From NCBI GenBank assembly GCA_038231075.1, contig JBBRMA010000001.1:278420-342419 (forward strand): DNA of 64,000 nt. Direction: 5' to 3'. Position 1 is the first letter of the stretch. Each line of letters starts with the position of its first letter. The notes under the pieces were generated by a model that was given only the letters and a program-made list of their open reading frames with translations, had not been told where the DNA came from and did no database searches. Origin of the DNA: Myxococcales bacterium (lineage in GTDB: Bacteria; Myxococcota; Myxococcia; Myxococcales; 40CM-4-68-19). Positions 55,147-62,539 of the stretch are shown here, in pieces. Made by a program: the position numbers and the translations under genes.

Positions 55147-55449
55147 TCAGAGCTCTTCGAGCCTGGCCTCGGGCGACAGCGTCGTCAAGAGCGCGGCGAC
55201 GCGGCTGACGATCTGCTCGCGCTCTTGCCGCGTGCCCGAGTGGATCACCAGCACGACGCCTTTTGCGTCGAGGGCGAGATCGAAGTCCTGCGGCCAGTCC
55301 TTGCGCGCCGGCCGATCGGCGAAGCGCAAGGCGATGGCGCCTTCCGCGCGCGAGACCACGGCCCAGCCCTTTTGCGCCGCGAGCGAATCCAAGAGACCCG
55401 CGCCACGGGCCGGCAGAAGCGCGAGGGCGGCGCGATATTCGAACCCCAT
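55147..55449 (-). CDS. Small cytoplasmic hypothetical protein (possible immunity/partner of the upstream secreted protein)
   Basis: 100-aa ORF with no signal peptide. Its ATG (55449-55447) overlaps the upstream TAA by 1 nt (TAATG). Confidence 0.5.
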   Translation of the reverse strand: MGFEYRAALALLPARGAGLLDSLAAQKGWAVVSRAEGAIALRFADRPARKDWPQDFDLALDAKGVVLVIHSGTRQEREQIVSRVAALLTTLSPEARLEEL

Positions 55450-55916
55450 TACTGCGTCCCCGCGCCGTGCGGGCGGTTGCGCACCGCGGGCAGGTCTTTC
55501 GGATTCTTCGCCCCGATGTGCGTCTTCTTCGGATCGCTGCTGGCGTGGCCGTGATCGTCGAGCTGCTTGCCGCTCGGATCTTCCTTGTGGATGTGCGCGT
55601 TGTTCGCCGACTTGTAGGGCGCGGTCTGCTCGTTCCCGCGCGGGTGGAGCCTGACCTCGGACCCGTCGGCGTGCTTCCAGGTCTCGTTCTTGGCGGCGCT
55701 GTTGCTCACCTTGGTCTGCGTGAAGCCGTTCTTCTTCAGCGTCTTGCGCGCCTTGGGGACCGAGGAGCCCTTCATCTTCGGCAGATCGGCAGCGGCGCTG
55801 CCCTTGCTCTTCTTCGCGGCCTGCGGCGGATTGGCCAGCGCCGGCCCGGCGAGAAAGAGGAAGCCGCAGAGCAGCGAGAGCAAGGCAAGGAGCCTGCTTG
55901 GTCGAGTCGAACTCAT
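55449..55916 (-). CDS. Small secreted Lys/His-rich hypothetical protein
   Basis: Signal peptide MSSTRPSRLLALLSLLCGFLFLAGPALA. Mature part is Lys-rich with His clusters (LHPRGNEQ...NNAHIHKEDP...DDHGHASSDPKKTHI). Visibly lower GC than neighbours. Confidence 0.55.
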   Translation of the reverse strand: MSSTRPSRLLALLSLLCGFLFLAGPALANPPQAAKKSKGSAAADLPKMKGSSVPKARKTLKKNGFTQTKVSNSAAKNETWKHADGSEVRLHPRGNEQTAPYKSANNAHIHKEDPSGKQLDDHGHASSDPKKTHIGAKNPKDLPAVRNRPHGAGTQ

Positions 55917-55988
55917 TTGTGTACCCCCCAAAGGATTGCGAGCGGGCTCCACTCTAGAGGAGCCGCCCGCGCATTGCTGTGACGCCGG

Positions 55989-57905
55989 TCAAATCGCTTC
56001 CAGGAACTCCGCGTTGCTCGAGAACTCGTTGAGCGACTTCATCAGCCGCTCCATCGCCTCGGCGGGCTTCAACGAATAGAGAGCGCCGCGCAGCTTCTTC
56101 ACCTTCTCGCACTCGTGCTGCGAGAAGAGCTTCTCTTCCTTGCGCGTGCCGCTGGTCTGGATGTTGATGGCCGGGAAGACGCGCTTCTCGGCCAGCTGGC
56201 GGTCGAGGTTGATTTCGCTGTTTCCCGTGCCCTTGAACTCCTCGAAGATCACCTCGTCCATGCGCGAGCCGGTGTCGATGAGCGCGGTGGCGATGATGGT
56301 CAAAGAGCCGCCCTCCTCGGCGTTGCGGGCGGCGCCGAACAGGCGCTTGGGGCGCTCGAGCGCGCGTGAGTCCACGCCGCCCGAGAGGGTTCGGCCCGAG
56401 GACTCAACCTCTTTGTTATAGGCGCGCGAGAGGCGGGTGATTGAGTCCAGGAGGATCACCACGTCCTTGCCCGCTTCGACCAACCGCTTGCTGCGCTCGA
56501 GCACCATCTCGGCGACGTGCAGGTGCTCCTCGGTCGGCCGGTCCGACGAGCTGGCGAAGACCTCGGCCTTCACCGTGCGGCGGAAGTCGGTCACTTCCTC
56601 GGGACGCTCGTCCACCAAGAGGACGAACTGGATGACGTCGGGCTTGTTGATGGTGATGGCCGCGCAGATCTTCTGCAGCATGATCGTCTTGCCGGTCTTG
56701 GGCGGCGCGACGATCAGCATGCGCTGGCCCATGCCGATGGGCGCGACGATGTCGATGACGCGCGTGAGCAGCTCTTTGGGCGTCGTCTCCATGATCAGCC
56801 GGTCGTCGGGGTCCACGACCGTCAGGTTCTGGAAGGCGGTGCGGGCTGTGGCGAGGCGCGGGTCGATGCCCTCGACCAGCTCGACGCGCACCAGCTGCGG
56901 CTTGCCGTTGCGGCGCGCCGACTGGCCGACGATGAGGTGGCCGGGCCGCAGCTTCTCGCGCTCGATGAAGAACTTCGGCACCTCGACATCGTCAGGATTG
57001 CCGAGGTAGCTGCGCACCGGGTTCGGGCTGCGCAGCCGGCCGTTGCCGCGGTGATCGACGTCGAGCACGCCCTCGCACGGCGTGAGCGGCTCCTGCCGCG
57101 GCTGCTGCTGCTGCTTCTGCTGGTTCTGGCCTTGGTTCTGGTTCTGGCCTTGGTTCTGACCCTGGTTTTGGTTCTGGTTCTGGCCGCCCTGCTGCTGCTG
57201 GCCGTGGCGATTGTGCCGGTTGCGCCCGTGCTGGTTCCGCTGGTGGCCGTGCTGCTGCTGCTGGCCCCCCTGCTGCTGCTGCTGGCCTTGCTGCTGACCT
57301 TGCTGCTGGGGAGGCGGAGCGGCGCCATCCGTGGGCGCACTCTCGGCTGCGGGCGCCTCACCCGAGGGCTGCGCCGGTTGGGACGGAGCGCTCTCGGCCG
57401 CCATGGGCGCGGGCTGGCCGTCAGCGGAGGGCGCGGCCTCGGCCTTCGGCGCTTGCACCGGCGGCGGCTCGGTCACCTGCGTGTGCACGTCGGCGGCGGG
57501 CTGCGCTGAGGCCTGCTGCTGCGCGCGCTCAGGCTCCTGCGCGTCGGCGGCGGCGGCCGGGAGCGCCTGGTTGCCATCCACCCCCTCGTCGTCGCCATCG
57601 TCGGGCTGATCGTTCTCGACGTCGACGATGCGCCCCTGCGCGTCGAGCGGCGCCGCGACGGCCGGCTTGTCGCCTGCGCCCTTGCCTCGCCCGCGGCCCC
57701 TGCCTCCGCGCCGCTGCCGCCGGAAGCGCCGCCGGCCGGCGCCCTCTTGTCCTGGTGCCGGCTGCTGCGCGGGTGCGCCGTTCGGACCGGCGACGTTCCC
57801 GTTCGCCTCGTGCGCCTGCGCGCGCTGCTGGTGCGGGACCCTGGCATTGCCGGGCTCCGCCGCATCAGGACCGCTGCTCGGGGGACGCTGACCTTCCTGG
57901 CTCAT
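55989..57905 (-). CDS. rho: Transcription termination factor Rho with a ~270-aa disordered N-terminal region (RGG box plus Q/N/H-rich tract)
   Basis: C-terminal 365 aa is canonical Rho (VAPIGMGQRMLIVAPPKTGKT, LLVDERPEEVTDF, ILLDSITRLSRAYN, TALIDTGSRMDEVIFEEFKGTGNSEI). ATG 57905 (MSQEGQ) is preferred over 57956. Confidence 0.93.
   Translation of the reverse strand: MSQEGQRPPSSGPDAAEPGNARVPHQQRAQAHEANGNVAGPNGAPAQQPAPGQEGAGRRRFRRQRRGGRGRGRGKGAGDKPAVAAPLDAQGRIVDVENDQPDDGDDEGVDGNQALPAAAADAQEPERAQQQASAQPAADVHTQVTEPPPVQAPKAEAAPSADGQPAPMAAESAPSQPAQPSGEAPAAESAPTDGAAPPPQQQGQQQGQQQQQGGQQQQHGHQRNQHGRNRHNRHGQQQQGGQNQNQNQGQNQGQNQNQGQNQQKQQQQPRQEPLTPCEGVLDVDHRGNGRLRSPNPVRSYLGNPDDVEVPKFFIEREKLRPGHLIVGQSARRNGKPQLVRVELVEGIDPRLATARTAFQNLTVVDPDDRLIMETTPKELLTRVIDIVAPIGMGQRMLIVAPPKTGKTIMLQKICAAITINKPDVIQFVLLVDERPEEVTDFRRTVKAEVFASSSDRPTEEHLHVAEMVLERSKRLVEAGKDVVILLDSITRLSRAYNKEVESSGRTLSGGVDSRALERPKRLFGAARNAEEGGSLTIIATALIDTGSRMDEVIFEEFKGTGNSEINLDRQLAEKRVFPAINIQTSGTRKEEKLFSQHECEKVKKLRGALYSLKPAEAMERLMKSLNEFSSNAEFLEAI
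57100..57310 (-). repeat. Gln/Asn/Gly/His codon microsatellite-like tract inside rho
   Basis: Plus strand reads ctgctgctg / ctggttctggccttggttctgg repeats. It translates on the minus strand to QQQGQQQGQQQQQGGQQQQHGHQRNQHGRNRHNRHGQQQQGGQNQNQNQGQNQGQNQNQGQNQQKQQQQ. Confidence 0.85.
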
Positions 57906-57927
57906 CGATGTCTCCGTGGACACTGCT

Positions 57928-59811
57928 CTACCTTCCCTTGCCCTTGTTCTGTCCAAACAGCCGCGAGAGCATGCCGCCCTTGGCAGCGCGCGCCTCGTCG
58001 GTCTTGCGATTCATCCGGGCCAGCTCGCGCTGGGCCTCGGCGTGCTGCGGGTCGATCTCGAGCGACTGCGCGAAAAAGCGGCGCGCCTTGCCTTCTTCGC
58101 CGAGCGCTTCGTGGAGGACGCCCGCGAAGCAGAGCGCGCTCGCGCCCTTGGCGTCCATCCCCAGCGACTTCTCGACGTTGGCGAGCCCTTCGGCCGCCTT
58201 GCCGCGCCCGCGAAAGAGGGAGATGCCGAGGTACGCCCAGAACTCGGCCTCGGTGTGGTTCAGGGCGAGGGCCTCGCGGAAGCTGGCCTCCGCCTCTTCG
58301 TACTTGGCGTTGCGGTACTGCACCTCGCCGCGGAGGAAGATCTGCTCGGCGCGCAAGATGGCCGTGACGTCGGTCGGCAGCCCCTTCGCCTTGCGGTCCA
58401 GGAGCACGTCGTACTCAGCGCGCTTGCCCTGGTCGCTGAGCGTGGAGAAGGCCTCGGCGGCGCGGCGGAACAGATCTTCGGCGATGCGCCGGGCCGACCC
58501 GAGCTCGAGGCCCGAGAGCGAATCCGAGTGGTACTTCTTGGCCGCCGCGAAGTACGCCTGCTTGATGTCGGCCTGGCTGGCGCCGGGCGGCACGCCGAGC
58601 AGCGCGTAGTGATCGGCGTCCTTGAGCCGGTCGCGCTCGAGCATCAGGAGGCGGCGGGTGTCGGCCTCGCGGGGGCTGAAGACGCGGCCCTTGTCCTCCT
58701 CTTCGGGCCGCGCGACCTTTTCGCTCGCGAGCTGCAAGAGGCTGCTCTCGCAGAGCGCGTGCAAGAGCGGCAGCTCGGCGTCGCGCACCCGGGGCAGGAT
58801 CTCGTGCAGCGAGCGGCCCGATTGCGCCAGCGCGGTCACGCCCTCGCCCGGCCAGGTGGTGCGCATGGAGAACAGCTCGCGCTCGAGCTCGGGTCCGCGC
58901 GTCACGCGCTCGGGCGCGCGCACGGCCAGCCAGCTCCGTGCCTTTTCCAGATCGCCAAAGCGCCTGGCCCCCTCCGACACCAGCTGCACCACGCTCGTGC
59001 GCAGGTCGGGCAACGCGCTGATCTTGTCGGGGGTGAGCGGCTCGAAGCGGAAGGTGCCGTCGGTCCACGCCAGCGCGCCGAGCGAGGCCTCGAGCGTCTG
59101 CTGCCGCAGCGCGACCTTGAGCTGGTCGGGCGCGAGCACGCGCGAGGCCGCGAGCGCCTCGTGGAGCGGCACCTTGCGCTGCTTGGCGTCGGCCAAGGCG
59201 CGGTCGAACGCAGCTTGCTTGATCTGCCCGCTCGCCACTTGCGCGGCGCCCGCTGTCTCGGCCTTGACGTTTGACTGGGCGAAGCGCACCTGGCCGGACT
59301 GCAAGGTGAGCTTGCGGACGGTGGTGCCGCGGGTCAACGTCAGCGTCCCGTTCGCTTTCTGCTTGAGCAGATCGACCAGGAGCCCCGAGGGCGAGCGCGC
59401 CGAGAAGTCGCCCTCGGCCCCAGCCTCGCCGCCCTTGAGCACGCGCATCAGCGCCTCGCGCAGCTGCGCGGGCTCGAAGGGCTTGGGGAGGAACGCTGCG
59501 GGCTTCGCTTGCGCCATGAACTCCAGCGGGAGCTGTTTGTAGACGCCGCTCACGACGATGAGCGGCAGGTCCGAGCCCCAGGCCGTGCCGCGCACGGCGC
59601 GCGCCACCTGGAAGCCGTCGAGCTCGGACAGCACGACGTCGAGGATGACGCAGTCGAACGACCGCGCCTTGCCCGGCGCGGGCTCGAGCAGCTTGAGCGC
59701 CTCGGCCCCCGAGCGCGTCGAGCGCGCAGAGAGGCCAAGCTCGGCGCAGAGGCCTGCCAGCAGCCGGGCGGCGCTCTCCTCGTCTTCGACAATGAGCACG
59801 GCTTGGGACAT
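57928..59811 (-). CDS. Multidomain protein: receiver + DUF4388-like + J-domain (HSD variant) + TPR repeats
   Basis: VLIVEDEESAARLL...DCVILDVVLSELDGF...FLPKPFE (receiver). LLVDLLKQKANGTLTLTRGTTVRKLTLQSGQVRFAQSN (DUF4388-like). DHYALLGVPPGASQADIKQAYFAAAKKYHSDSL (J-domain). TPR-like C-terminus. ATG 59811 (TTG 59817 is listed). Confidence 0.85.
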   Translation of the reverse strand: MSQAVLIVEDEESAARLLAGLCAELGLSARSTRSGAEALKLLEPAPGKARSFDCVILDVVLSELDGFQVARAVRGTAWGSDLPLIVVSGVYKQLPLEFMAQAKPAAFLPKPFEPAQLREALMRVLKGGEAGAEGDFSARSPSGLLVDLLKQKANGTLTLTRGTTVRKLTLQSGQVRFAQSNVKAETAGAAQVASGQIKQAAFDRALADAKQRKVPLHEALAASRVLAPDQLKVALRQQTLEASLGALAWTDGTFRFEPLTPDKISALPDLRTSVVQLVSEGARRFGDLEKARSWLAVRAPERVTRGPELERELFSMRTTWPGEGVTALAQSGRSLHEILPRVRDAELPLLHALCESSLLQLASEKVARPEEEDKGRVFSPREADTRRLLMLERDRLKDADHYALLGVPPGASQADIKQAYFAAAKKYHSDSLSGLELGSARRIAEDLFRRAAEAFSTLSDQGKRAEYDVLLDRKAKGLPTDVTAILRAEQIFLRGEVQYRNAKYEEAEASFREALALNHTEAEFWAYLGISLFRGRGKAAEGLANVEKSLGMDAKGASALCFAGVLHEALGEEGKARRFFAQSLEIDPQHAEAQRELARMNRKTDEARAAKGGMLSRLFGQNKGKGR

Positions 59812-59893
59812 CGACAACCCGGGCCGCCACGGAGGCCGGCCAGCTTCTTTCTTCAGCCTCGGGCAGCGCCCGGGCAGGTTCGATGCGGCTTCA

Positions 59894-62458
59894 TCACCGC
59901 ACCTCGATCACGTAAGGCAGCACGGCCCGCACGGTGCCGGGCTCGCCGAGAAGCGACACTGCGCGCAGCGCTCGCACGGCCTCGCGCCTGGGCACTCCGC
60001 CGAGCGCCGCTCCGAAGAGCTGCGCCGGACCCACCGCGGCCGCCGCGAGCTGGCTGAGCTCGAGGGCCTCGGCGCGTCCGTGGTCATCCACTTCGAGCTC
60101 GTCACCCGCGTGCAGTCCGGCGCGGGCGGCGGCCGAGGCGATGGCGTCTTCCAGCCCGCCGAGCTTGTCGACGAGGCCCTGTTCCTGCGCCTGCTGCCCC
60201 GACCAGACGCGCCCGCGGCCAACCTTGTCCACCTGCTCGGGCGTCAGCTTCCGACCTTCGGCCACGCGGGCCACGAACTGCTCGTAGAACGAGTCGACCC
60301 ACGCCTGCAGCGTCTTGCGCTCGGCGTCCGTGCTCGGCCGCGTGGTGCCGAGCAGGTCCGCCGACTGGCCGCGCTTGACCGTCTCGAAGTGCAGGCCGAG
60401 CTTTTCGTACAGCTCGCTGGCGTCGATCTTGGCGGAGAAGACGCCGATCGAGCCCGTGATCGTCGAGGGCTCGGCGAAGATCTCGTCGCACCCTACGGCC
60501 ACGTAGTATCCGCCGCTGGCGGCGACATCTCCCATGCTGGCCACCACCGGCTTGTGCTTCTCCTTGCGCGCCCTCTGCAGCTCGCGCCAGATCAGGTCCG
60601 AGGCGTTCCCGTCGCCGCCGGGCGAGTCGATCCGCACCACGATGGCCCTCACGCGCGGGTCGTCGGCGGCGCGGCGGATCTGCTTGACCACCGAGTCGCT
60701 CCCGACGCTGGCCATGAGGCCGAGCACGTCGCCCTGGCTGGCGCCGGACGAGATCGTCCCCTCGACGCGGATGAGCGCGATGCGCGGCAGGGAGCCCCAG
60801 CGCACCTTTCGCTCGTTGCCACCCGGCAGCGAGACTTCCCTCAGCGGAACTTTCTTGCCCAGAGCTTTTGCGACCTCCTCCTCGAGCTCACCGGGATATC
60901 CGAGCGCGTCGAAGAGCCCACCGTTCACTGCCTCTTGCGGCCGCAGGATGCCGCGGTCCAAGAGCCCCTTCAGCTTCCCTTCCTCGAGGTGCCGCCGGCC
61001 CGCGACCTCGCGGACAAACCGGCCGTACACGTCGTCGAGCAGAGCGTTCTGCACCTCGCGCTGCTCGGCCGACATGTCCTGGCGGGTGAAGGTGTCGGGC
61101 GCGTTCTTGTATGCGCCGACGCGGACGAACTCCGCCTTCACGCCCAGCTTGTGCAGGCCTTCAGCAGCAAAGAGCGCCGTCGCCGAGAATCCGTTGATCG
61201 TCAAGCCCGCCTGTGGGGCGGTGAGGATTCGATCAGCAGCGGTAGCGACATAGTATTCGAGGTCGCCGCCACTTTCCAGAAAGAAGAGCACGTACTTGCC
61301 GGCCAGGCGCAATCCCTCGATTCCCTTGCGAAGTTCGTCGGCCTTGCCCATCCCGCCCGGCATCCCCGACGAGGTCAGGACCACCGCCGCCACCGAGTCG
61401 TCCATCGCCAGCTTGTGGAGCGCGGCCAGCGTCTCTGCGTGAGGGTCCCGTTGGGTGCCGCCGAGCACGAGCGACCAGAGGCTGCGGGGCGCGGGGTTCA
61501 GCGTCTCGTCGAGCTTGACCAGCGCTGCATGGCGCATCGAGGGGCTCGGCCAGGCCTCGCTCGACAGGCGCACGCGCAGGCTGCCTTGGGAGCCGGAGAG
61601 CGGGTTCACGGCTTGTGAATAGGCGACACCGAGGTGGCCGAGGTCGAAGGAGACGCCGACCTGGCCGCTCCAGCGGTCAAAGGTGGTGTCGCGGAAGACC
61701 TGGCCGAGGACGTGGACGGTCTTGCTGACCAGGACGTCGCCGGTGAAGCGCACGCCGAGCCCCGCGCCGCAGCGGGAGAAGCGGCTCGGGGGAAAGGTTG
61801 CCGCCTCGCCCTGGTCGCACTTGCTGGCGATGGCGTCGGCGCCGAGGGTGACCCGTTCGCCCAGCGGCCGCACGCCGACGCCGAGGACGAAGCGCGGGTT
61901 CAGGTCGGTGAGGCCCAGGCGCGGCGTGTCCACGCCGAGCACCGAGAAGGCGAAGGAGAGCGCGCGCAGCGGCCGGAACGTCAGGCCGAGGTCCCAAGCG
62001 GCGAAGCCGTCGTAGGAGGTGCCGGGCGTGGCCGACCAGGTGTGGCGCACCACTCCGACGCCGAGGTTTCCCAGGCGCAGCGCGGCTCCGTACCCCATGC
62101 GGTGCGTGCGCGAGTCGTTGCAGAACAGGGCAGGCGCGGCGCAGGGGAGGGACCCCATCCATTCAGTAGAGATGCCGAGCACCAGCGGGCCGGCGCCCGC
62201 GGAGACGAAGAGACCGTCGCCGCTCTGGCCCACGGCCGAGAAGGACTGCGCGCGCACGTACTCGAACTCCAGCGCCCGCGCGAAGGCGAGACCCCCGGGG
62301 GAGGACGAGAGCGCCGTGGCCTCGTCGTCGAGGGCGGACGAATCGACCACCAGCGGGATCCCCGCGCTGGGCGCGGTCGGGAAGCTCTGGGCCCAGGCGG
62401 CGCCGGCGAACAAGAGCGAGAGCGCGGCTGCCCGACTGGCGGCTCGATGACAGGTCAT
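59894..62458 (-). CDS. sppA: Signal peptide peptidase SppA (67K type, tandem S49 domains) with an extra ~300-aa N-terminal beta-rich domain
   Basis: RVRAIVVRIDSPGGDGNASD...VVASMGDVAASGGYYVAVGCDEIFAEPSTITGSIGV (catalytic Ser context) plus a degenerate first S49 domain. Signal peptide AAALSLLFAGAAWAQ. ATG 62458 was chosen within ORF 59894..63265. Confidence 0.85.
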   Translation of the reverse strand: MTCHRAASRAAALSLLFAGAAWAQSFPTAPSAGIPLVVDSSALDDEATALSSSPGGLAFARALEFEYVRAQSFSAVGQSGDGLFVSAGAGPLVLGISTEWMGSLPCAAPALFCNDSRTHRMGYGAALRLGNLGVGVVRHTWSATPGTSYDGFAAWDLGLTFRPLRALSFAFSVLGVDTPRLGLTDLNPRFVLGVGVRPLGERVTLGADAIASKCDQGEAATFPPSRFSRCGAGLGVRFTGDVLVSKTVHVLGQVFRDTTFDRWSGQVGVSFDLGHLGVAYSQAVNPLSGSQGSLRVRLSSEAWPSPSMRHAALVKLDETLNPAPRSLWSLVLGGTQRDPHAETLAALHKLAMDDSVAAVVLTSSGMPGGMGKADELRKGIEGLRLAGKYVLFFLESGGDLEYYVATAADRILTAPQAGLTINGFSATALFAAEGLHKLGVKAEFVRVGAYKNAPDTFTRQDMSAEQREVQNALLDDVYGRFVREVAGRRHLEEGKLKGLLDRGILRPQEAVNGGLFDALGYPGELEEEVAKALGKKVPLREVSLPGGNERKVRWGSLPRIALIRVEGTISSGASQGDVLGLMASVGSDSVVKQIRRAADDPRVRAIVVRIDSPGGDGNASDLIWRELQRARKEKHKPVVASMGDVAASGGYYVAVGCDEIFAEPSTITGSIGVFSAKIDASELYEKLGLHFETVKRGQSADLLGTTRPSTDAERKTLQAWVDSFYEQFVARVAEGRKLTPEQVDKVGRGRVWSGQQAQEQGLVDKLGGLEDAIASAAARAGLHAGDELEVDDHGRAEALELSQLAAAAVGPAQLFGAALGGVPRREAVRALRAVSLLGEPGTVRAVLPYVIEVR

Positions 62459-62539
62459 GTTGGGCTCCTGCACGGCGGGTTCTGATCGCGCTAATGTCCG
62501 GCCGCGGGCGCTCACATAGCGCAAGCGCATCCGGAGGGC

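What the first reader, a model, noticed from the sequence alone, without database searches (positions are those of the whole stretch)
57086..57905. Rho factor lacking a recognisable N-terminal helix bundle and carrying an RGG box plus a prion-like Q/N/H tract
The canonical Rho sequence begins only at about ...TPCEGVLDVDHRGNGRLR (the cold-shock-like RNA-binding domain). The preceding ~270 aa are low complexity. They comprise an arginine/glycine box (GRRRFRRQRRGGRGRGRGKG, ~57680-57740), an acidic and Pro/Ala-rich stretch, and a ~70-aa Gln/Asn/Gly/His tract (57100-57310) encoded by ctg/gtt-type short repeats. I cannot find the usual Rho_N SAP-like helix pattern.

Q/N-rich inserts in Rho of some bacteria have been reported to behave as prion-forming or phase-separating domains. 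The repetitive codons could also make the tract length-variable.
Basis: partly seen in the sequence, partly recalled or inferred. Interest (0 to 1): 0.55.

Follow-up and report, generated by a model that had tools for sequence, protein, structure and literature searches.

The report
Rho factor with disordered arginine-rich N-terminus
This is the disordered front end of a real Rho transcription-termination factor from an uncultured soil myxobacterial lineage; it has lost the usual N-terminal helix bundle and the usual RNA-recognition residues, carries a strictly conserved arginine-rich motif instead, and belongs to a class of atypical Rho already catalogued.

Summary
Window 57086-57905 (- strand) encodes residues 1-273 of a 638-aa Rho (CDS 55989-57905). 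This part has no detectable Rho_N helix bundle. It holds an Arg/Gly box at 57678-57743, acidic and Pro/Ala stretches, and a Gln/Asn/Gly/His tract at 57093-57311 built partly from 18-bp repeats.

The extension is not just low complexity. Relatives share invariant short motifs: MxxEGQRPP, PEPGNAR, RR[RK]FRRxRRGGRGR and PLDAQGRIxDVEN[DE]. These also confirm the start codon.

The cold-shock-like domain is retained, but all four aromatic RNA-contact residues of E. coli Rho (F62, F64, Y80, Y110) are replaced throughout the clade. 70 of 71 other Rho loci keep all four. The ATPase motor is intact.

About 30 uncultured Myxococcales or Deltaproteobacteria MAG species carry this form.

Most likely the arginine-rich motif in the disordered region has taken over RNA capture. 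The Q/N tract is most likely a fast-evolving flexible linker, possibly promoting condensates. Prion behaviour is weakly supported: the tract has no aromatic residues and 17% basic residues.

Moreira et al. 2024 already define this architecture as "Type 2d". I rate it a new variant of a known kind, of moderate interest.

The parts
55989..57905 (-). rho coding sequence, 638 aa plus stop
   Evidence: ORF. NCBIfam PRK09376 'transcription termination factor Rho' scores 486.5 bits (cut-off 315), aligning residues 264-637 to profile positions 38-412. PDB Rho chains match at E~1e-107.
57912..57915 (-). GGAG ribosome-binding site, 7-10 nt upstream of the ATG
   Evidence: Upstream sequence ...CACGGAGACATCG|ATG. 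The upstream gene's stop codon ends at 57928.
57879..57905 (-). Conserved N-terminal cap MSQEGQRPP (clade consensus MNGEGQRPP)
   Evidence: M1 is invariant and Q6, R7, P8 are >=90% conserved in 64 sequences. In about 30 MAG loci conservation starts exactly at this Met, and the sequence upstream of it is unrelated.
57834..57863 (-). Conserved motif AAEPGNARVP (clade consensus DAPEPGNARYP)
   Evidence: A15, P16, E17, P18, G19, N20, R22 and P24 are >=90% conserved.
57678..57743 (-). Arginine-rich motif GAGRRRFRRQRRGGRGRGRGKG (11 K/R, no acidic residue)
   Evidence: R59, F61, R62, R63, R65, R66, G67, G68, R69, G70 and R71 are invariant in 64 sequences. In 32 loci the amino acids are invariant while the Arg and Gly codons vary synonymously (CGG/CGC/CGT/AGG/CGA).
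57609..57650 (-). Conserved motif PLDAQGRIVDVEND
   Evidence: P86, D88, G91 and R92 are invariant; L87, A89, Q90, I93, D95, V96, E97 and N98 are >=90% conserved. It is the only part of the extension with raised AF2 confidence (block means 57-58, against 33-50 for the other blocks), with a beta-bridge between L87 and I93. The degenerate DNA pattern for this motif occurs in 29 stretches of the GTDB species representatives, all uncultured Myxococcales or Deltaproteobacteria MAGs.
57570..57611 (-). Acidic patch DQPDDGDDEGVDGN (7 D/E in 14 residues)
57312..57569 (-). Hypervariable Pro/Ala/Gln/Glu linker (residues 113-198)
   Evidence: Composition. Across relatives the distance from the PLD motif to the cold-shock-like domain ranges from 66 to 260 aa (SD 27.9), while the core length is fixed at 358-360 aa.
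57093..57311 (-). Gln/Asn/Gly/His/Arg tract (residues 199-271) abutting the cold-shock-like domain
   Evidence: 48 Q/N in the best 80-aa window. 6 K/R and 5 H, with no acidic, aromatic or aliphatic residue. At 78 aa by a sliding-window measure it is the longest among 115 clade proteins (median 30).
57120..57185 (-). 18-bp tandem repeat (+ strand unit CTGGTTCTGGCCTTGGTT, 3.7 copies, 79% matches) encoding (GQNQNQ/GQNQ)n
   Evidence: Tandem Repeats Finder.
56859..57074 (-). Cold-shock-like (OB) RNA-binding domain with its aromatic primary-binding-site residues replaced
   Evidence: Pfam Rho_RNA_bind scores 30.6 bits (cut-off 27) over residues 278-349. AF2 pLDDT is about 90. Replacements relative to EcRho: L58->D284, F62->N288, F64->R290, Y80->E308, E108->K335, R109->P336, Y110 deleted. 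R66 and D78 are kept.
56151..56762 (-). RecA-type ATPase motor domain
   Evidence: Pfam ATP-synt_ab, E=4.3e-25, residues 382-585. K181, K184, T185, E211, R212, D265, R269 and R366 of EcRho are all conserved. The Q-loop reads SSGRTLSGGVD and the R-loop DTGSR.

Best explanation
The region encodes the ~275-residue intrinsically disordered N-terminal extension of a real, motor-competent Rho termination factor. Its architecture is the one Moreira et al. 2024 call Type 2d: an extra region in front of the RNA-binding domain, with no recognisable N-terminal helix bundle.

In this lineage of uncultured soil Myxococcota the whole RNA-capture end of Rho has been remodelled. The helix bundle is gone. The OB-fold is kept, but its four aromatic base-stacking residues are replaced by polar or charged ones.

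A strictly conserved arginine-rich motif (RR[RK]FRRxRRGGRGR) sits in the disordered region, followed by a conserved beta-hairpin-like PLDAQGRIxDVEN[DE] motif and an acidic patch.

The most likely mechanism (inferred, not shown): six flexible arginine-rich arms per hexamer provide the first, largely sequence-independent grip on nascent, GC-rich, structured RNA and pass it to the unchanged central motor. The arginine-rich disordered insertion of M. tuberculosis Rho has been shown to work this way.

The Gln/Asn/His/Arg tract next to the OB-fold is a weakly basic, flexible linker that changes length quickly. Together with the alternating basic and acidic blocks it could also give multivalency for RNA-dependent condensates. 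It is unlikely to be a true prion domain.
For: Identity as Rho, shown:
- NCBIfam Rho scores 486.5 bits, and PDB Rho chains match at E~1e-107.
- All catalytic, Walker, Q-loop and R-loop residues are kept.
- The core is ~82% identical across 29 MAG loci, while the neighbouring gene is only ~52% identical. This points to strong purifying selection.

No helix bundle, shown:
- Pfam gives no hit at E<=10, and none in 64 members at E<=1.
- The custom helix-bundle HMM hits 0 of 121 clade proteins and 67 of 71 controls.
- AF2 pLDDT is mostly below 50 with no helix across the extension, in two models.

Aromatic RNA-contact residues lost, shown:
- Window residues at EcRho positions 58/62/64/66/78/80/108/109/110 read DNRRDEKP-, against LFFRDYERY in EcRho.
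- The same pattern holds in all 120 homologues and in the clade loci. 70 of 71 Rho loci from other phyla keep all four aromatics.
- Y80C alone abolishes primary RNA binding and termination in E. coli (PMC1950744).

The motifs are selected at the protein level, shown:
- Columns are invariant, while the codons vary synonymously.
- A profile of the arginine-rich motif plus PLD motif finds only this Rho clade among 1.84 billion representative proteins: 11 hits at E<=3e-10.
- The PLD motif and the altered RNP1 (DHRGNG[RK]LR) occur in almost the same ~30 MAGs.

Mechanism, by analogy:
- The Arg/Gly-rich disordered insertion of MtbRho is needed for RNA binding and for using structured Rut sites: 1759 sites with it, 47 without. 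It stays disordered on the RNA (PMC13650167).
- Arginine-rich 'RxR' motifs are proposed to be RNA-binding in atypical Rho (PMC11347177).
- The window is 70.8% G+C.
Against: - No biochemical data exist for any member of this clade. RNA binding by the arginine-rich motif is inferred from composition and analogy only.
- R66 and D78 equivalents, plus several Arg residues, remain in the OB cleft. A non-stacking mode of RNA binding by the OB-fold cannot be excluded.
- I could not test whether the same genomes also carry a canonical Rho. If they do, that copy could supply the missing functions in mixed hexamers.
- The AF2 models are weak overall (mean pLDDT 56-58, shallow alignments of close relatives). 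They support disorder only loosely.
- The role of the PLDAQGRIVDVEND motif is unknown.
Confidence: 0.55

Rival explanations
1. The Q/N/H tract is a prion-forming domain. It switches Rho into a self-propagating amyloid state, lowers termination genome-wide and produces heritable phenotypic variation, as reported for Clostridium botulinum Rho.
For: - 48 Q/N in an 80-aa window. By my recollection this exceeds the classical threshold of 30 per 80.
- The tract lies directly in front of the RNA-binding domain, as in Cb-Rho (PMC4703818).
- Prion-like regions are predicted in 14% of windows of Type 2d regions (PMC11347177).
Against: - The tract has no aromatic or aliphatic residue. The Cb-Rho amyloid core NNNNSNFNNNSNNNSSFNNSN relies on Asn/Ser plus two Phe.
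- 11 of its 65 residues are K/R/H, and Gly interrupts every Q/N run; the longest Q run is 5.
- The best 41-aa mean prion propensity is -0.018, against +0.165 for the Cb-Rho core. This uses an approximate Toombs scale recalled from memory.
- Asn-richness is species-specific. The clade tract averages 2% N, 15% P and 12% R/K, a composition that disfavours amyloid.
- B. fragilis Rho has a QN motif but did not aggregate (PMC11347177).
Confidence: 0.08
2. The main role of the extension is liquid-liquid phase separation. Alternating basic (arginine-rich motif, Q/H/R tract) and acidic blocks, plus RNA, drive Rho condensates that raise termination activity under stress, as shown for Bacteroides thetaiotaomicron Rho. 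This does not exclude the RNA-tether model.
For: - Block charge pattern: arginine-rich motif +11; PLD motif and acidic patch about -10; linker -9 net; tract +6 plus 5 His.
- Disorder is predicted throughout.
- Additional regions of atypical Rho are generally predicted to promote droplets. BtRho phase separation is cited in PMC11347177 and PMC12360218.
Against: - No droplet predictor or experiment was run here.
- The strictly invariant spacing and sequence of the arginine-rich and PLD motifs suggests specific binding rather than generic stickers.
- Linker length varies 4-fold within the clade, so no particular valency is conserved.
Confidence: 0.25
3. This gene is a second, specialised rho paralogue (the 'Group B' of the literature). 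It coexists with a canonical Rho in the same genome and works alone on special targets or in mixed hexamers, so losing the helix bundle and the RNA-contact residues costs little.
For: - Second Rho copies usually lack the N-terminal domain and include subtype 2d (PMC11347177).
- The core is about equally distant (~53-57% identity) from another Myxococcales Rho (L067) and from Rho of other phyla.
- L067 shows that some Myxococcales bins carry a canonical helix bundle and the GYGF motif.
Against: - The protein scores higher on the canonical Rho model (486.5 bits) than on NCBIfam's 'paralog_Rho2 short form' model (422 bits, cut-off 628 not reached).
- The locus SppA / response-regulator-DnaJ-TPR / rho is syntenic in 29 MAGs, and the core is much more conserved than its neighbours.
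- Two-rho genomes are mainly Actinomycetota and the PVC group.
- No second rho lies in the 64-kb window, but that is weak evidence.
Confidence: 0.2
4. The Q/N tract and the Pro/Ala linker have no function of their own. They are neutral low-complexity sequence that grows and shrinks by replication slippage in a tolerant spacer, and only the short conserved motifs matter.
For: - Among protein pairs whose 358-aa core is >=99% identical, 72% differ in extension length; the core never varies in length.
- Imperfect 18-bp repeats lie in the tract.
- Two contigs of one MAG differ by a 21-residue poly-Q run.
- The tract ranges from 0 to 78 aa by my measure.
Against: - A Q-rich, basic, Pro-containing segment ending in ...QQQPRxEP lies before the OB-fold in most members. 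Composition and position are therefore maintained even though length is not.
- No member examined lacks the linker entirely; the minimum distance from the PLD motif to the OB-fold is 66 aa.
Confidence: 0.3
5. The start codon is wrong, and the low-complexity region is untranslated leader.
For: None beyond the unusual composition.
Against: - The conserved N-terminal cap MxxEGQRPP begins exactly at the Met in ~30 loci.
- Protein-level conservation with synonymous codon variation is seen in the arginine-rich motif.
- GC3 is 0.82-0.90 in this frame across the extension.
- A GGAG lies 7-10 nt upstream, and the upstream gene ends 22 nt before the ATG.
- No start codon lies between the tract and the first strand of the OB-fold.
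Confidence: 0.01

Closest known systems
Rho 'Type 2d' of Moreira, Chyou, Wade & Brown 2024 (NAR 52:8979; PMC11347177)
   Same: An extra region of more than 25 aa lies in front of the RNA-binding domain, with no recognisable N-terminal domain. It is predicted disordered and carries APA-like, QN-like and RxR-like compositional motifs. The genome is high in G+C.
   Different: - Type 2d was described mainly in Actinomycetota, the PVC group and Spirochaetota.
- That paper covers 12 Myxococcota species and does not describe this lineage in the main text.
- That survey found no alignable conservation between distant species. Here four short motifs are invariant across the clade.
- All four aromatic primary-binding-site residues are lost without the basic 'RNP3 insertion' the paper associates with RNP1 loss.
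Mycobacterium tuberculosis / Micrococcus luteus Rho with an Arg/Gly-rich N-terminal insertion domain (PMC13650167, PMC8828861)
   Same: - A disordered Arg/Gly-rich segment lies upstream of the OB-fold in a high-GC organism.
- The motif resembles the actinobacterial one: Streptomyces L011 has RRGRRGRYRDRRGRRG followed by an acidic DDDV. By my recollection M. tuberculosis has RRGRRFRDRRRRG followed by EDDV.
- This is the best experimental model for RNA capture by a disordered arm.
   Different: - Actinobacterial Rho keeps the helix bundle and the aromatic residues at positions 62, 64, 80 and 110.
- Its arginine-rich motif sits right next to the OB-fold, not ~190 residues away.
- The profile of the myxobacterial motif did not retrieve actinobacterial Rho, so the likeness may be convergent.
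Clostridium botulinum Rho prion-forming domain (Pallares et al. 2016, PMC4703818; Yuan & Hochschild 2017)
   Same: A Q/N-rich disordered segment immediately N-terminal to the RNA-binding domain of Rho.
   Different: - Cb-Rho keeps the helix bundle (architecture as described in PMC11347177), so its segment is an insertion.
- Its segment is Asn/Ser-rich with Phe, whereas this one is Gln/Gly/Asn with Arg/His and no aromatic residue.
- The approximate prion-propensity score here is negative.
Bacteroides thetaiotaomicron Rho disordered region (Krypotou et al. 2023, cited in PMC11347177 and PMC12360218)
   Same: A large disordered region in the N-terminal part of Rho. Phase separation is a plausible shared property.
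   Different: - BtRho is Type 2b: helix bundle present, with the region inserted after it.
- There is no sequence similarity.
- Condensation is untested here.
Rho 'Type 4' / 'Group B' / NCBIfam paralog_Rho2 short form (NF041509)
   Same: Lacks the N-terminal helix bundle.
   Different: - Those forms are short, with no long extension.
- The window protein scores 422 bits against a cut-off of 628 and scores better on the canonical Rho model.

Membership tests
Transcription termination factor Rho | RecA-type ATPase domain with Walker A/B, catalytic Glu, Arg valve and Arg finger, Q-loop and R-loop | tested here: met
   K181, K184, T185, E211, R212, D265, R269 and R366 equivalents are all present. 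The Q-loop reads SSGRTLSGGVD and the R-loop DTGSR. The C-terminal domain is 59% identical to EcRho. Pfam ATP-synt_ab E=4.3e-25.
Transcription termination factor Rho | Curated whole-protein model score above cut-off | tested here: met
   NF006886/PRK09376 scores 486.5 bits against a cut-off of 315. TIGR00767 scores 481.5 bits, below its stricter cut-off of 509.45, because profile positions 1-39 are unmatched.
Transcription termination factor Rho | Cold-shock-like (OB) RNA-binding domain | tested here: met
   PF07497 scores 30.6 bits, just above the cut-off of 27. All 64 clade members match, but weakly; the best E-value is 2.3e-8. AF2 pLDDT is ~90 with an OB-like strand pattern.
Canonical (E. 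coli-type, Type 1) Rho | N-terminal three-helix bundle (Rho_N, PF07498) | tested here: not met
   No Pfam hit at E<=10. The custom helix-bundle HMM with filters off gives 0 of 121, against 67 of 71 controls. AF2 predicts no helix in the extension.
Canonical (E. coli-type, Type 1) Rho | Primary binding site with aromatic residues F62, F64 (RNP1), Y80 and Y110 | tested here: not met
   These become N288, R290, E308 and a deletion. The same holds in all 120 homologues, while 70 of 71 other Rho loci keep all four.
Rho Type 2d (Moreira et al. 2024) | Extra region of more than 25 aa before the RNA-binding domain, with no recognisable N-terminal domain, in a protein holding the RNA-binding and ATPase domains | tested here: met
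   277 residues precede the RNA-binding domain, with no N-terminal domain. The definition is in PMC11347177.
Rho with an N-terminal insertion domain (Types 2b/2c; D'Heygere et al.) | Insertion located between the helix bundle and the RNA-binding domain | tested here: not met
   There is no helix bundle on the N-terminal side of the extra region.
NCBIfam paralog_Rho2 (short-form second Rho) | Score above the model's cut-off of 628 bits | tested here: not met
   422 bits.
Second ('Group B') Rho copy | Coexists with a canonical Rho in the same genome | not testable with these tools
   Only 64 kb of this genome is available, and the collection scans cannot be restricted to one MAG.
Prion-forming domain (Cb-Rho-like) | Q/N-rich disordered segment | tested here: met
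   48 Q/N in 80 residues. AF2 pLDDT is below 50.
Prion-forming domain (Cb-Rho-like) | Positive prion-propensity score, or an amyloid core with a few hydrophobic or aromatic residues | tested here: not met
   No aromatic or aliphatic residue in residues 199-271. The approximate best 41-aa propensity is -0.018 against +0.165 for the Cb core. The scale was recalled from memory; PLAAC and PAPA themselves were not run.
Prion-forming domain (Cb-Rho-like) | Self-propagating aggregated state | not testable with these tools
   Needs experiment.
Phase-separating Rho (BtRho-like) | Disordered region that forms condensates in vitro and in vivo | not testable with these tools
   Only predicted disorder and block charge pattern are available.
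RGG box (eukaryotic sense: clustered RGG repeats) | Two or three closely spaced RGG triplets | tested here: not met
   RRGGRGRGRGKG holds one RGG and three further RG. It is better described as an arginine-rich or RG motif. The RGG definition is recalled from the literature.

The most novel reading that the evidence does not exclude
This clade's only Rho has given up both structured RNA-recognition elements: the helix bundle and the pyrimidine-stacking primary binding site. It loads onto transcripts purely through six disordered arginine-rich arms, or through a protein partner bound by the conserved PLDAQGRIVDVEND hairpin. If so, 'Rut site' recognition in these high-GC soil Myxococcota would follow rules different from the YC-dinucleotide model. 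It would be a natural experiment showing that the primary binding site of Rho is dispensable.
Probability: 0.3. Interest if true: 0.65.

Novelty: new variant of a known kind. Interest (0 to 1): 0.45.

Why it matters
Rho is the general transcription terminator of bacteria. How it chooses its RNA targets is still poorly defined outside E. coli, especially in GC-rich genomes. Atypical Rho with disordered additions are common, but only a few have been studied.

This lineage is an extreme case. The helix bundle and all aromatic RNA-contact residues are gone, while the motor is under strong selection and a short arginine-rich motif is invariant.

If this is the cell's only Rho, it gives a clean system to ask two questions. 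Can a disordered arm fully replace the structured RNA-binding crown? How does target choice change when it does?

It also shows that domain-model surveys can under-call Rho in such lineages, because the RNA-binding domain barely passes Pfam. The prion idea that made the finding attractive is the least supported part.

Tried and rejected
- The first genome-collection scan with the whole protein was swamped by low-complexity peptide patterns. It returned only distant Rho (47-57% identity), which I used later as controls.
Degenerate DNA patterns for specific motifs worked instead.
- An exact look-up of the window protein in the assembly collection found nothing. An exact 48-mer search in the GTDB representatives also found nothing. 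The organism is therefore not identified beyond its similarity to Myxococcales MAGs.
- Rfam on the whole window gave no family, so there is no known leader or riboswitch at rho.
- I looked for a C>G skew in the mRNA of the tract, as a possible autoregulatory Rut site. Nothing stood out: C/G was 0.97-1.26.
- Foldseek of the AF2 model returned only Rho structures at low TM-score, because the model is poor. It added nothing.
- Synteny of another Myxococcales rho (L067) was compared to settle orthology against paralogy. The neighbourhood is unrelated, so this was uninformative.
- The supplements of Moreira et al. are not held, so I could not look up the Rho types of their 12 Myxococcota. The Krypotou 2023 paper is not held either.
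- Weak profile hits to proteins with 'IDAQGRIVAVG' repeats are beta-propeller-type repeats. A weak hit to P0135 reflects generic RRGGRGRGR tails. Neither is a relative.
- Wrong start codon, and a spurious ORF on the opposite strand: rejected on conservation and codon-position GC.


Full report
**What is there**

The finding lies inside one long ORF on the - strand. The ORF lister extends it to a TTG at 57956. However, the upstream gene (a response-regulator/DUF4388/DnaJ/TPR protein, 57928-59817) stops at 57928, and an ATG at 57905 is preceded by GGAG at -10 to -7. From that ATG the product is 638 aa (55989-57905).

Pfam finds Rho_RNA_bind at residues 278-349, weakly: 30.6 bits against a cut-off of 27. 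It finds the ATPase domain at 382-585, and no Rho_N even at E<=10. NCBIfam's Rho model scores 486.5 bits and aligns residues 264-637 to profile positions 38-412, so about the first 37 positions of canonical Rho have no counterpart.

- The Arg/Gly box is at 57678-57743.
- The acidic patch is at 57570-57611.
- The Pro/Ala-rich linker runs to about 57312.
- The Q/N/G/H tract is at 57093-57311.

The tract has 48 Q/N in its best 80-residue window and an entropy of 2.11 bits/residue, against at least 3.6 anywhere in the core. On the + strand it is built from CTG/GTT-type units, including an imperfect 18-bp repeat of 3.7 copies at 57120-57185.

**The extension is translated and is not merely low complexity**

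A search of 5.8 billion proteins returned more than 100 relatives that are 80-85% identical in the core. They are 470-690 aa long, none has PF07498, and all named ones are 'Myxococcales' or 'Deltaproteobacteria' MAGs. Their N-terminal parts share a fixed order of short motifs:
- MxxEGQRPP at the very start
- DAPEPGNARYP
- a G/Q-rich spacer
- EGGGRR[RK]FRRxRRGGRGR
- a spacer of roughly 12-20 residues, then PLDAQGRIxDVEN[DE]
- an acidic patch
- a hypervariable P/A/Q linker
- a basic Q-rich tract ending ...QQQPRxEP
- the OB-fold

In 64 aligned sequences R59, F61, R62, R63, R65, R66, G67, G68, R69, G70, R71, P86, D88, G91 and R92 are invariant.

In about 30 MAG loci, conservation begins exactly at the Met, and the sequence upstream of it is unrelated. 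The invariant Arg and Gly residues of the arginine-rich motif are encoded by freely varying synonymous codons. GC3 is 0.82-0.90 in this frame through the extension.

**The helix bundle is really absent**

I built an HMM from 60 helix bundles taken from diverse Rho loci and ran it with all filters off. It detects the bundle in 67 of 71 control Rho ORFs, including six not used for training. In actinobacterial controls it finds the bundle 100-350 residues upstream of the OB-fold. It detects none in 121 clade proteins; the best E-value is 5.

I made two AF2 models: the window protein with 64 sequences, and a short-linker relative with 121. Both predict no helix before the OB-fold, and pLDDT is mostly below 50 across the extension. 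The highest block means of the extension, 52-58, fall at the PLD motif, where a single beta-bridge pairs L87 and I93. The OB-fold itself is confident, with pLDDT around 90. The models are weak overall and support disorder only loosely.

I aligned the OB-fold to E. coli Rho, using the HMMER alignment to PDB chains and a Smith-Waterman mapping. The primary-binding-site residues are replaced as follows:

| EcRho residue | Window residue |
|---|---|
| L58 | D284 |
| F62 | N288 |
| F64 | R290 |
| Y80 | E308 |
| E108 | K335 |
| R109 | P336 |
| Y110 | deleted |
| R66 | R292 (kept) |
| D78 | D306 (kept) |

The motif DHRGNG(R/K)LR is invariant or nearly so in the clade. All 120 homologues and all clade loci lack aromatics at the four positions. 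In contrast, 70 of 71 Rho loci from Planctomycetota, Actinomycetota, Acidobacteriota, Spirochaetota, Proteobacteria and others keep all four.

In E. coli, Y80C alone abolishes primary RNA binding and termination (PMC1950744).

The motor is untouched. The Walker A and B residues, E211, R212, R269 and R366 are present, the Q-loop reads SSGRTLSGGVD and the R-loop DTGSR.

Another Myxococcales MAG (L067, 53% identical) has a normal helix bundle and DGYGFLR, so the remodelling is specific to this clade.

**Distribution**

A profile of the arginine-rich motif plus the PLD motif was searched against 1.84 billion representative proteins. It found 11 strong hits, all this Rho or N-terminal fragments of it. 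The weak hits were beta-propeller-type repeats ('IDAQGRIVAVG') and an unrelated protein with RRGGRGRGR tails.

I also scanned 185,579 GTDB species genomes with degenerate DNA patterns. The PLD motif gave 29 stretches and DHRGNG[RK]LR gave 27. Both sets come from essentially the same ~30 uncultured Myxococcales or Deltaproteobacteria MAGs, many with soil-catalogue (SMAG) isolate names.

The gene order SppA / response-regulator-DnaJ-TPR / rho is conserved. The upstream gene is found in 29 loci and SppA in 22. The rho core is ~82% identical to the window's, against ~52% for the neighbouring gene, so this Rho is under strong purifying selection.

The window's own genome and protein are not in the collections.

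**Length instability**

The core is 358 aa in almost all members and 360 in the window. Other distances vary widely:
- From the N-terminus to the arginine-rich motif: 20-78 aa.
- From the PLD motif to the OB-fold: 66-260 aa.

Among pairs with at least 99% identical cores, 72% differ in extension length. Two contigs of one MAG differ by a 21-residue poly-Q run.

The window has the longest pre-OB tract of 115 proteins, 78 aa against a median of 30. It is unusually Asn-rich, 13% against a clade mean of 2%, owing to its 18-bp repeats.

The repeats are imperfect and in frame, so this is drift in length and not an on/off switch.

**Mechanism**

Shown:
- It is a motor-competent Rho.
- Its N-terminus is predicted to be disordered.
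- It lacks the helix bundle and the aromatic primary binding site.
- It has invariant arginine-rich and PLD motifs.

Inferred: the arginine-rich motif supplies primary RNA capture.

The best experimental parallel is M. tuberculosis Rho. Its Arg/Gly-rich insertion is disordered, stays disordered on RNA, and is needed for RNA binding and for using structured Rut sites: 1759 sites with it, 47 without (PMC13650167). Arginine-rich 'RxR' motifs are proposed to be RNA-binding in atypical Rho (PMC11347177). The window is 70.8% G+C.

The actinobacterial motif resembles the myxobacterial one. Streptomyces has RRGRRGRYRDRRGRRG followed by an acidic DDDV. However, actinobacterial Rho keeps the bundle and the aromatics. 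The profile also did not retrieve actinobacterial Rho, so the likeness may be convergent.

The alternating charge blocks are: arginine-rich motif +11, acidic patch -7, linker net negative, tract +6 plus 5 His. This pattern makes RNA-dependent condensation plausible but untested.

The PLD motif may form a small hairpin that docks on the OB-fold or on a partner. This is speculation.

**Prion reading**

By Q/N count the tract qualifies. Several points count against it:
- It has no aromatic or aliphatic residue.
- 11 of its 65 residues are K/R/H.
- Gly interrupts every Q/N run.
- An approximate prion-propensity score is negative: -0.018 against +0.165 for the C. botulinum core NNNNSNFNNNSNNNSSFNNSN. 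The scale was recalled from memory.
- In relatives the tract is Pro- and Arg-rich.

I give the prion reading about 0.08.

**Comparison with what is known**

Moreira et al. 2024 classify Rho into types. [quoted passage not shown] This type makes up 7.8% of Rho sequences and is mostly found in the PVC group, Spirochaetota and Actinomycetota. [quoted passage not shown]

They also note RNP1 loss in some Actinomycetota and PVC Rho that carry a basic RNP3 insertion. Second Rho copies often lack the N-terminal domain.

The window protein meets the Type 2d definition. It does not meet the definitions of a classic insertion-domain Rho or of NCBIfam's short-form Rho2.

I found no paper describing this myxobacterial lineage, its invariant motifs, or the complete loss of aromatic binding-site residues. 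The searchable library is incomplete, however, and the supplements of the key survey are not held.

The main open question is whether these genomes also hold a canonical Rho. I could not test this.

**Verdict**

This is a new variant of a known kind (Type 2d atypical Rho). The headline prion idea is weak. A more interesting feature sits underneath it: a strongly conserved Rho that lacks both structured RNA-recognition elements. Interest 0.45.

Noticed in passing
window 56859-57074 (-): The OB-fold of this Rho has lost all four aromatic primary-binding-site residues (F62N, F64R, Y80E, Y110 deleted). L58 has become Asp. This holds across the whole clade, whereas 70 of 71 Rho loci from other phyla keep all four.
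   Followed up: yes
L081 1956-2270 and L082 2379-2714 (two contigs of MAG SMAG_U9411): Two versions of the same rho N-terminus occur in one bin. One has a run of 21 Gln between PEPGNARYPQ and the arginine-rich motif; the other has QQQPPQQPQQQQ. This is probably strain-level tract-length variation that also broke the assembly, since L081 ends inside the gene.
   Followed up: partly
window 57928-59817 (-) and 59894-62500 (-): The gene upstream of rho encodes a response-regulator receiver + DUF4388 + DnaJ + TPR protein, preceded by a two-domain SppA (peptidase S49). The upstream gene lies next to rho in 29 MAG loci and SppA is found in 22. Only 22 nt separate its stop codon from the rho start, so rho is probably co-transcribed with it and has no leader of its own.
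   Followed up: partly
P0132, P0134 (hits): The motif LDAQGRIVDV resembles the 'IDAQGRIVAVG' strand-turn-strand of a repeated beta-propeller-type unit found in unrelated secreted proteins. This hints that the Rho motif forms a small beta-hairpin. AF2 places a beta-bridge between L87 and I93.
   Followed up: partly
P0135 (hit): An unrelated 755-aa protein carries three copies of RR..RRGGRGRGR-type tails. This kind of arginine/glycine motif therefore recurs in other bacterial disordered regions and is not unique to Rho.
   Followed up: no
literature (PMC11347177): The survey lists Haliangium ochraceum as a myxobacterium 'lacking functional Rho'. The RNA-binding domain of the present clade barely passes Pfam (30.6 bits against 27), and several clade members have no precomputed PF07497 hit. 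Such calls could therefore be detection failures and not true losses.
   Followed up: no
window 56970-57030 (-), residues 293-304: The window protein has two extra residues and a different loop (SPNPVRSYLGNP) where the clade consensus has xAKxNFLPQQ. Its closest relatives are only ~83% identical in the core. It is therefore an outlying member of the clade, with the longest Q/N tract.
   Followed up: partly
window 1-64000: No Rfam family reaches its gathering score anywhere in the 64-kb window.
   Followed up: no
window 55449-55952 (-): The small ORF downstream of rho (167 aa, with a signal-peptide-like N-terminus) has no Pfam match and no counterpart in the 29 syntenic MAG loci.
   Followed up: partly
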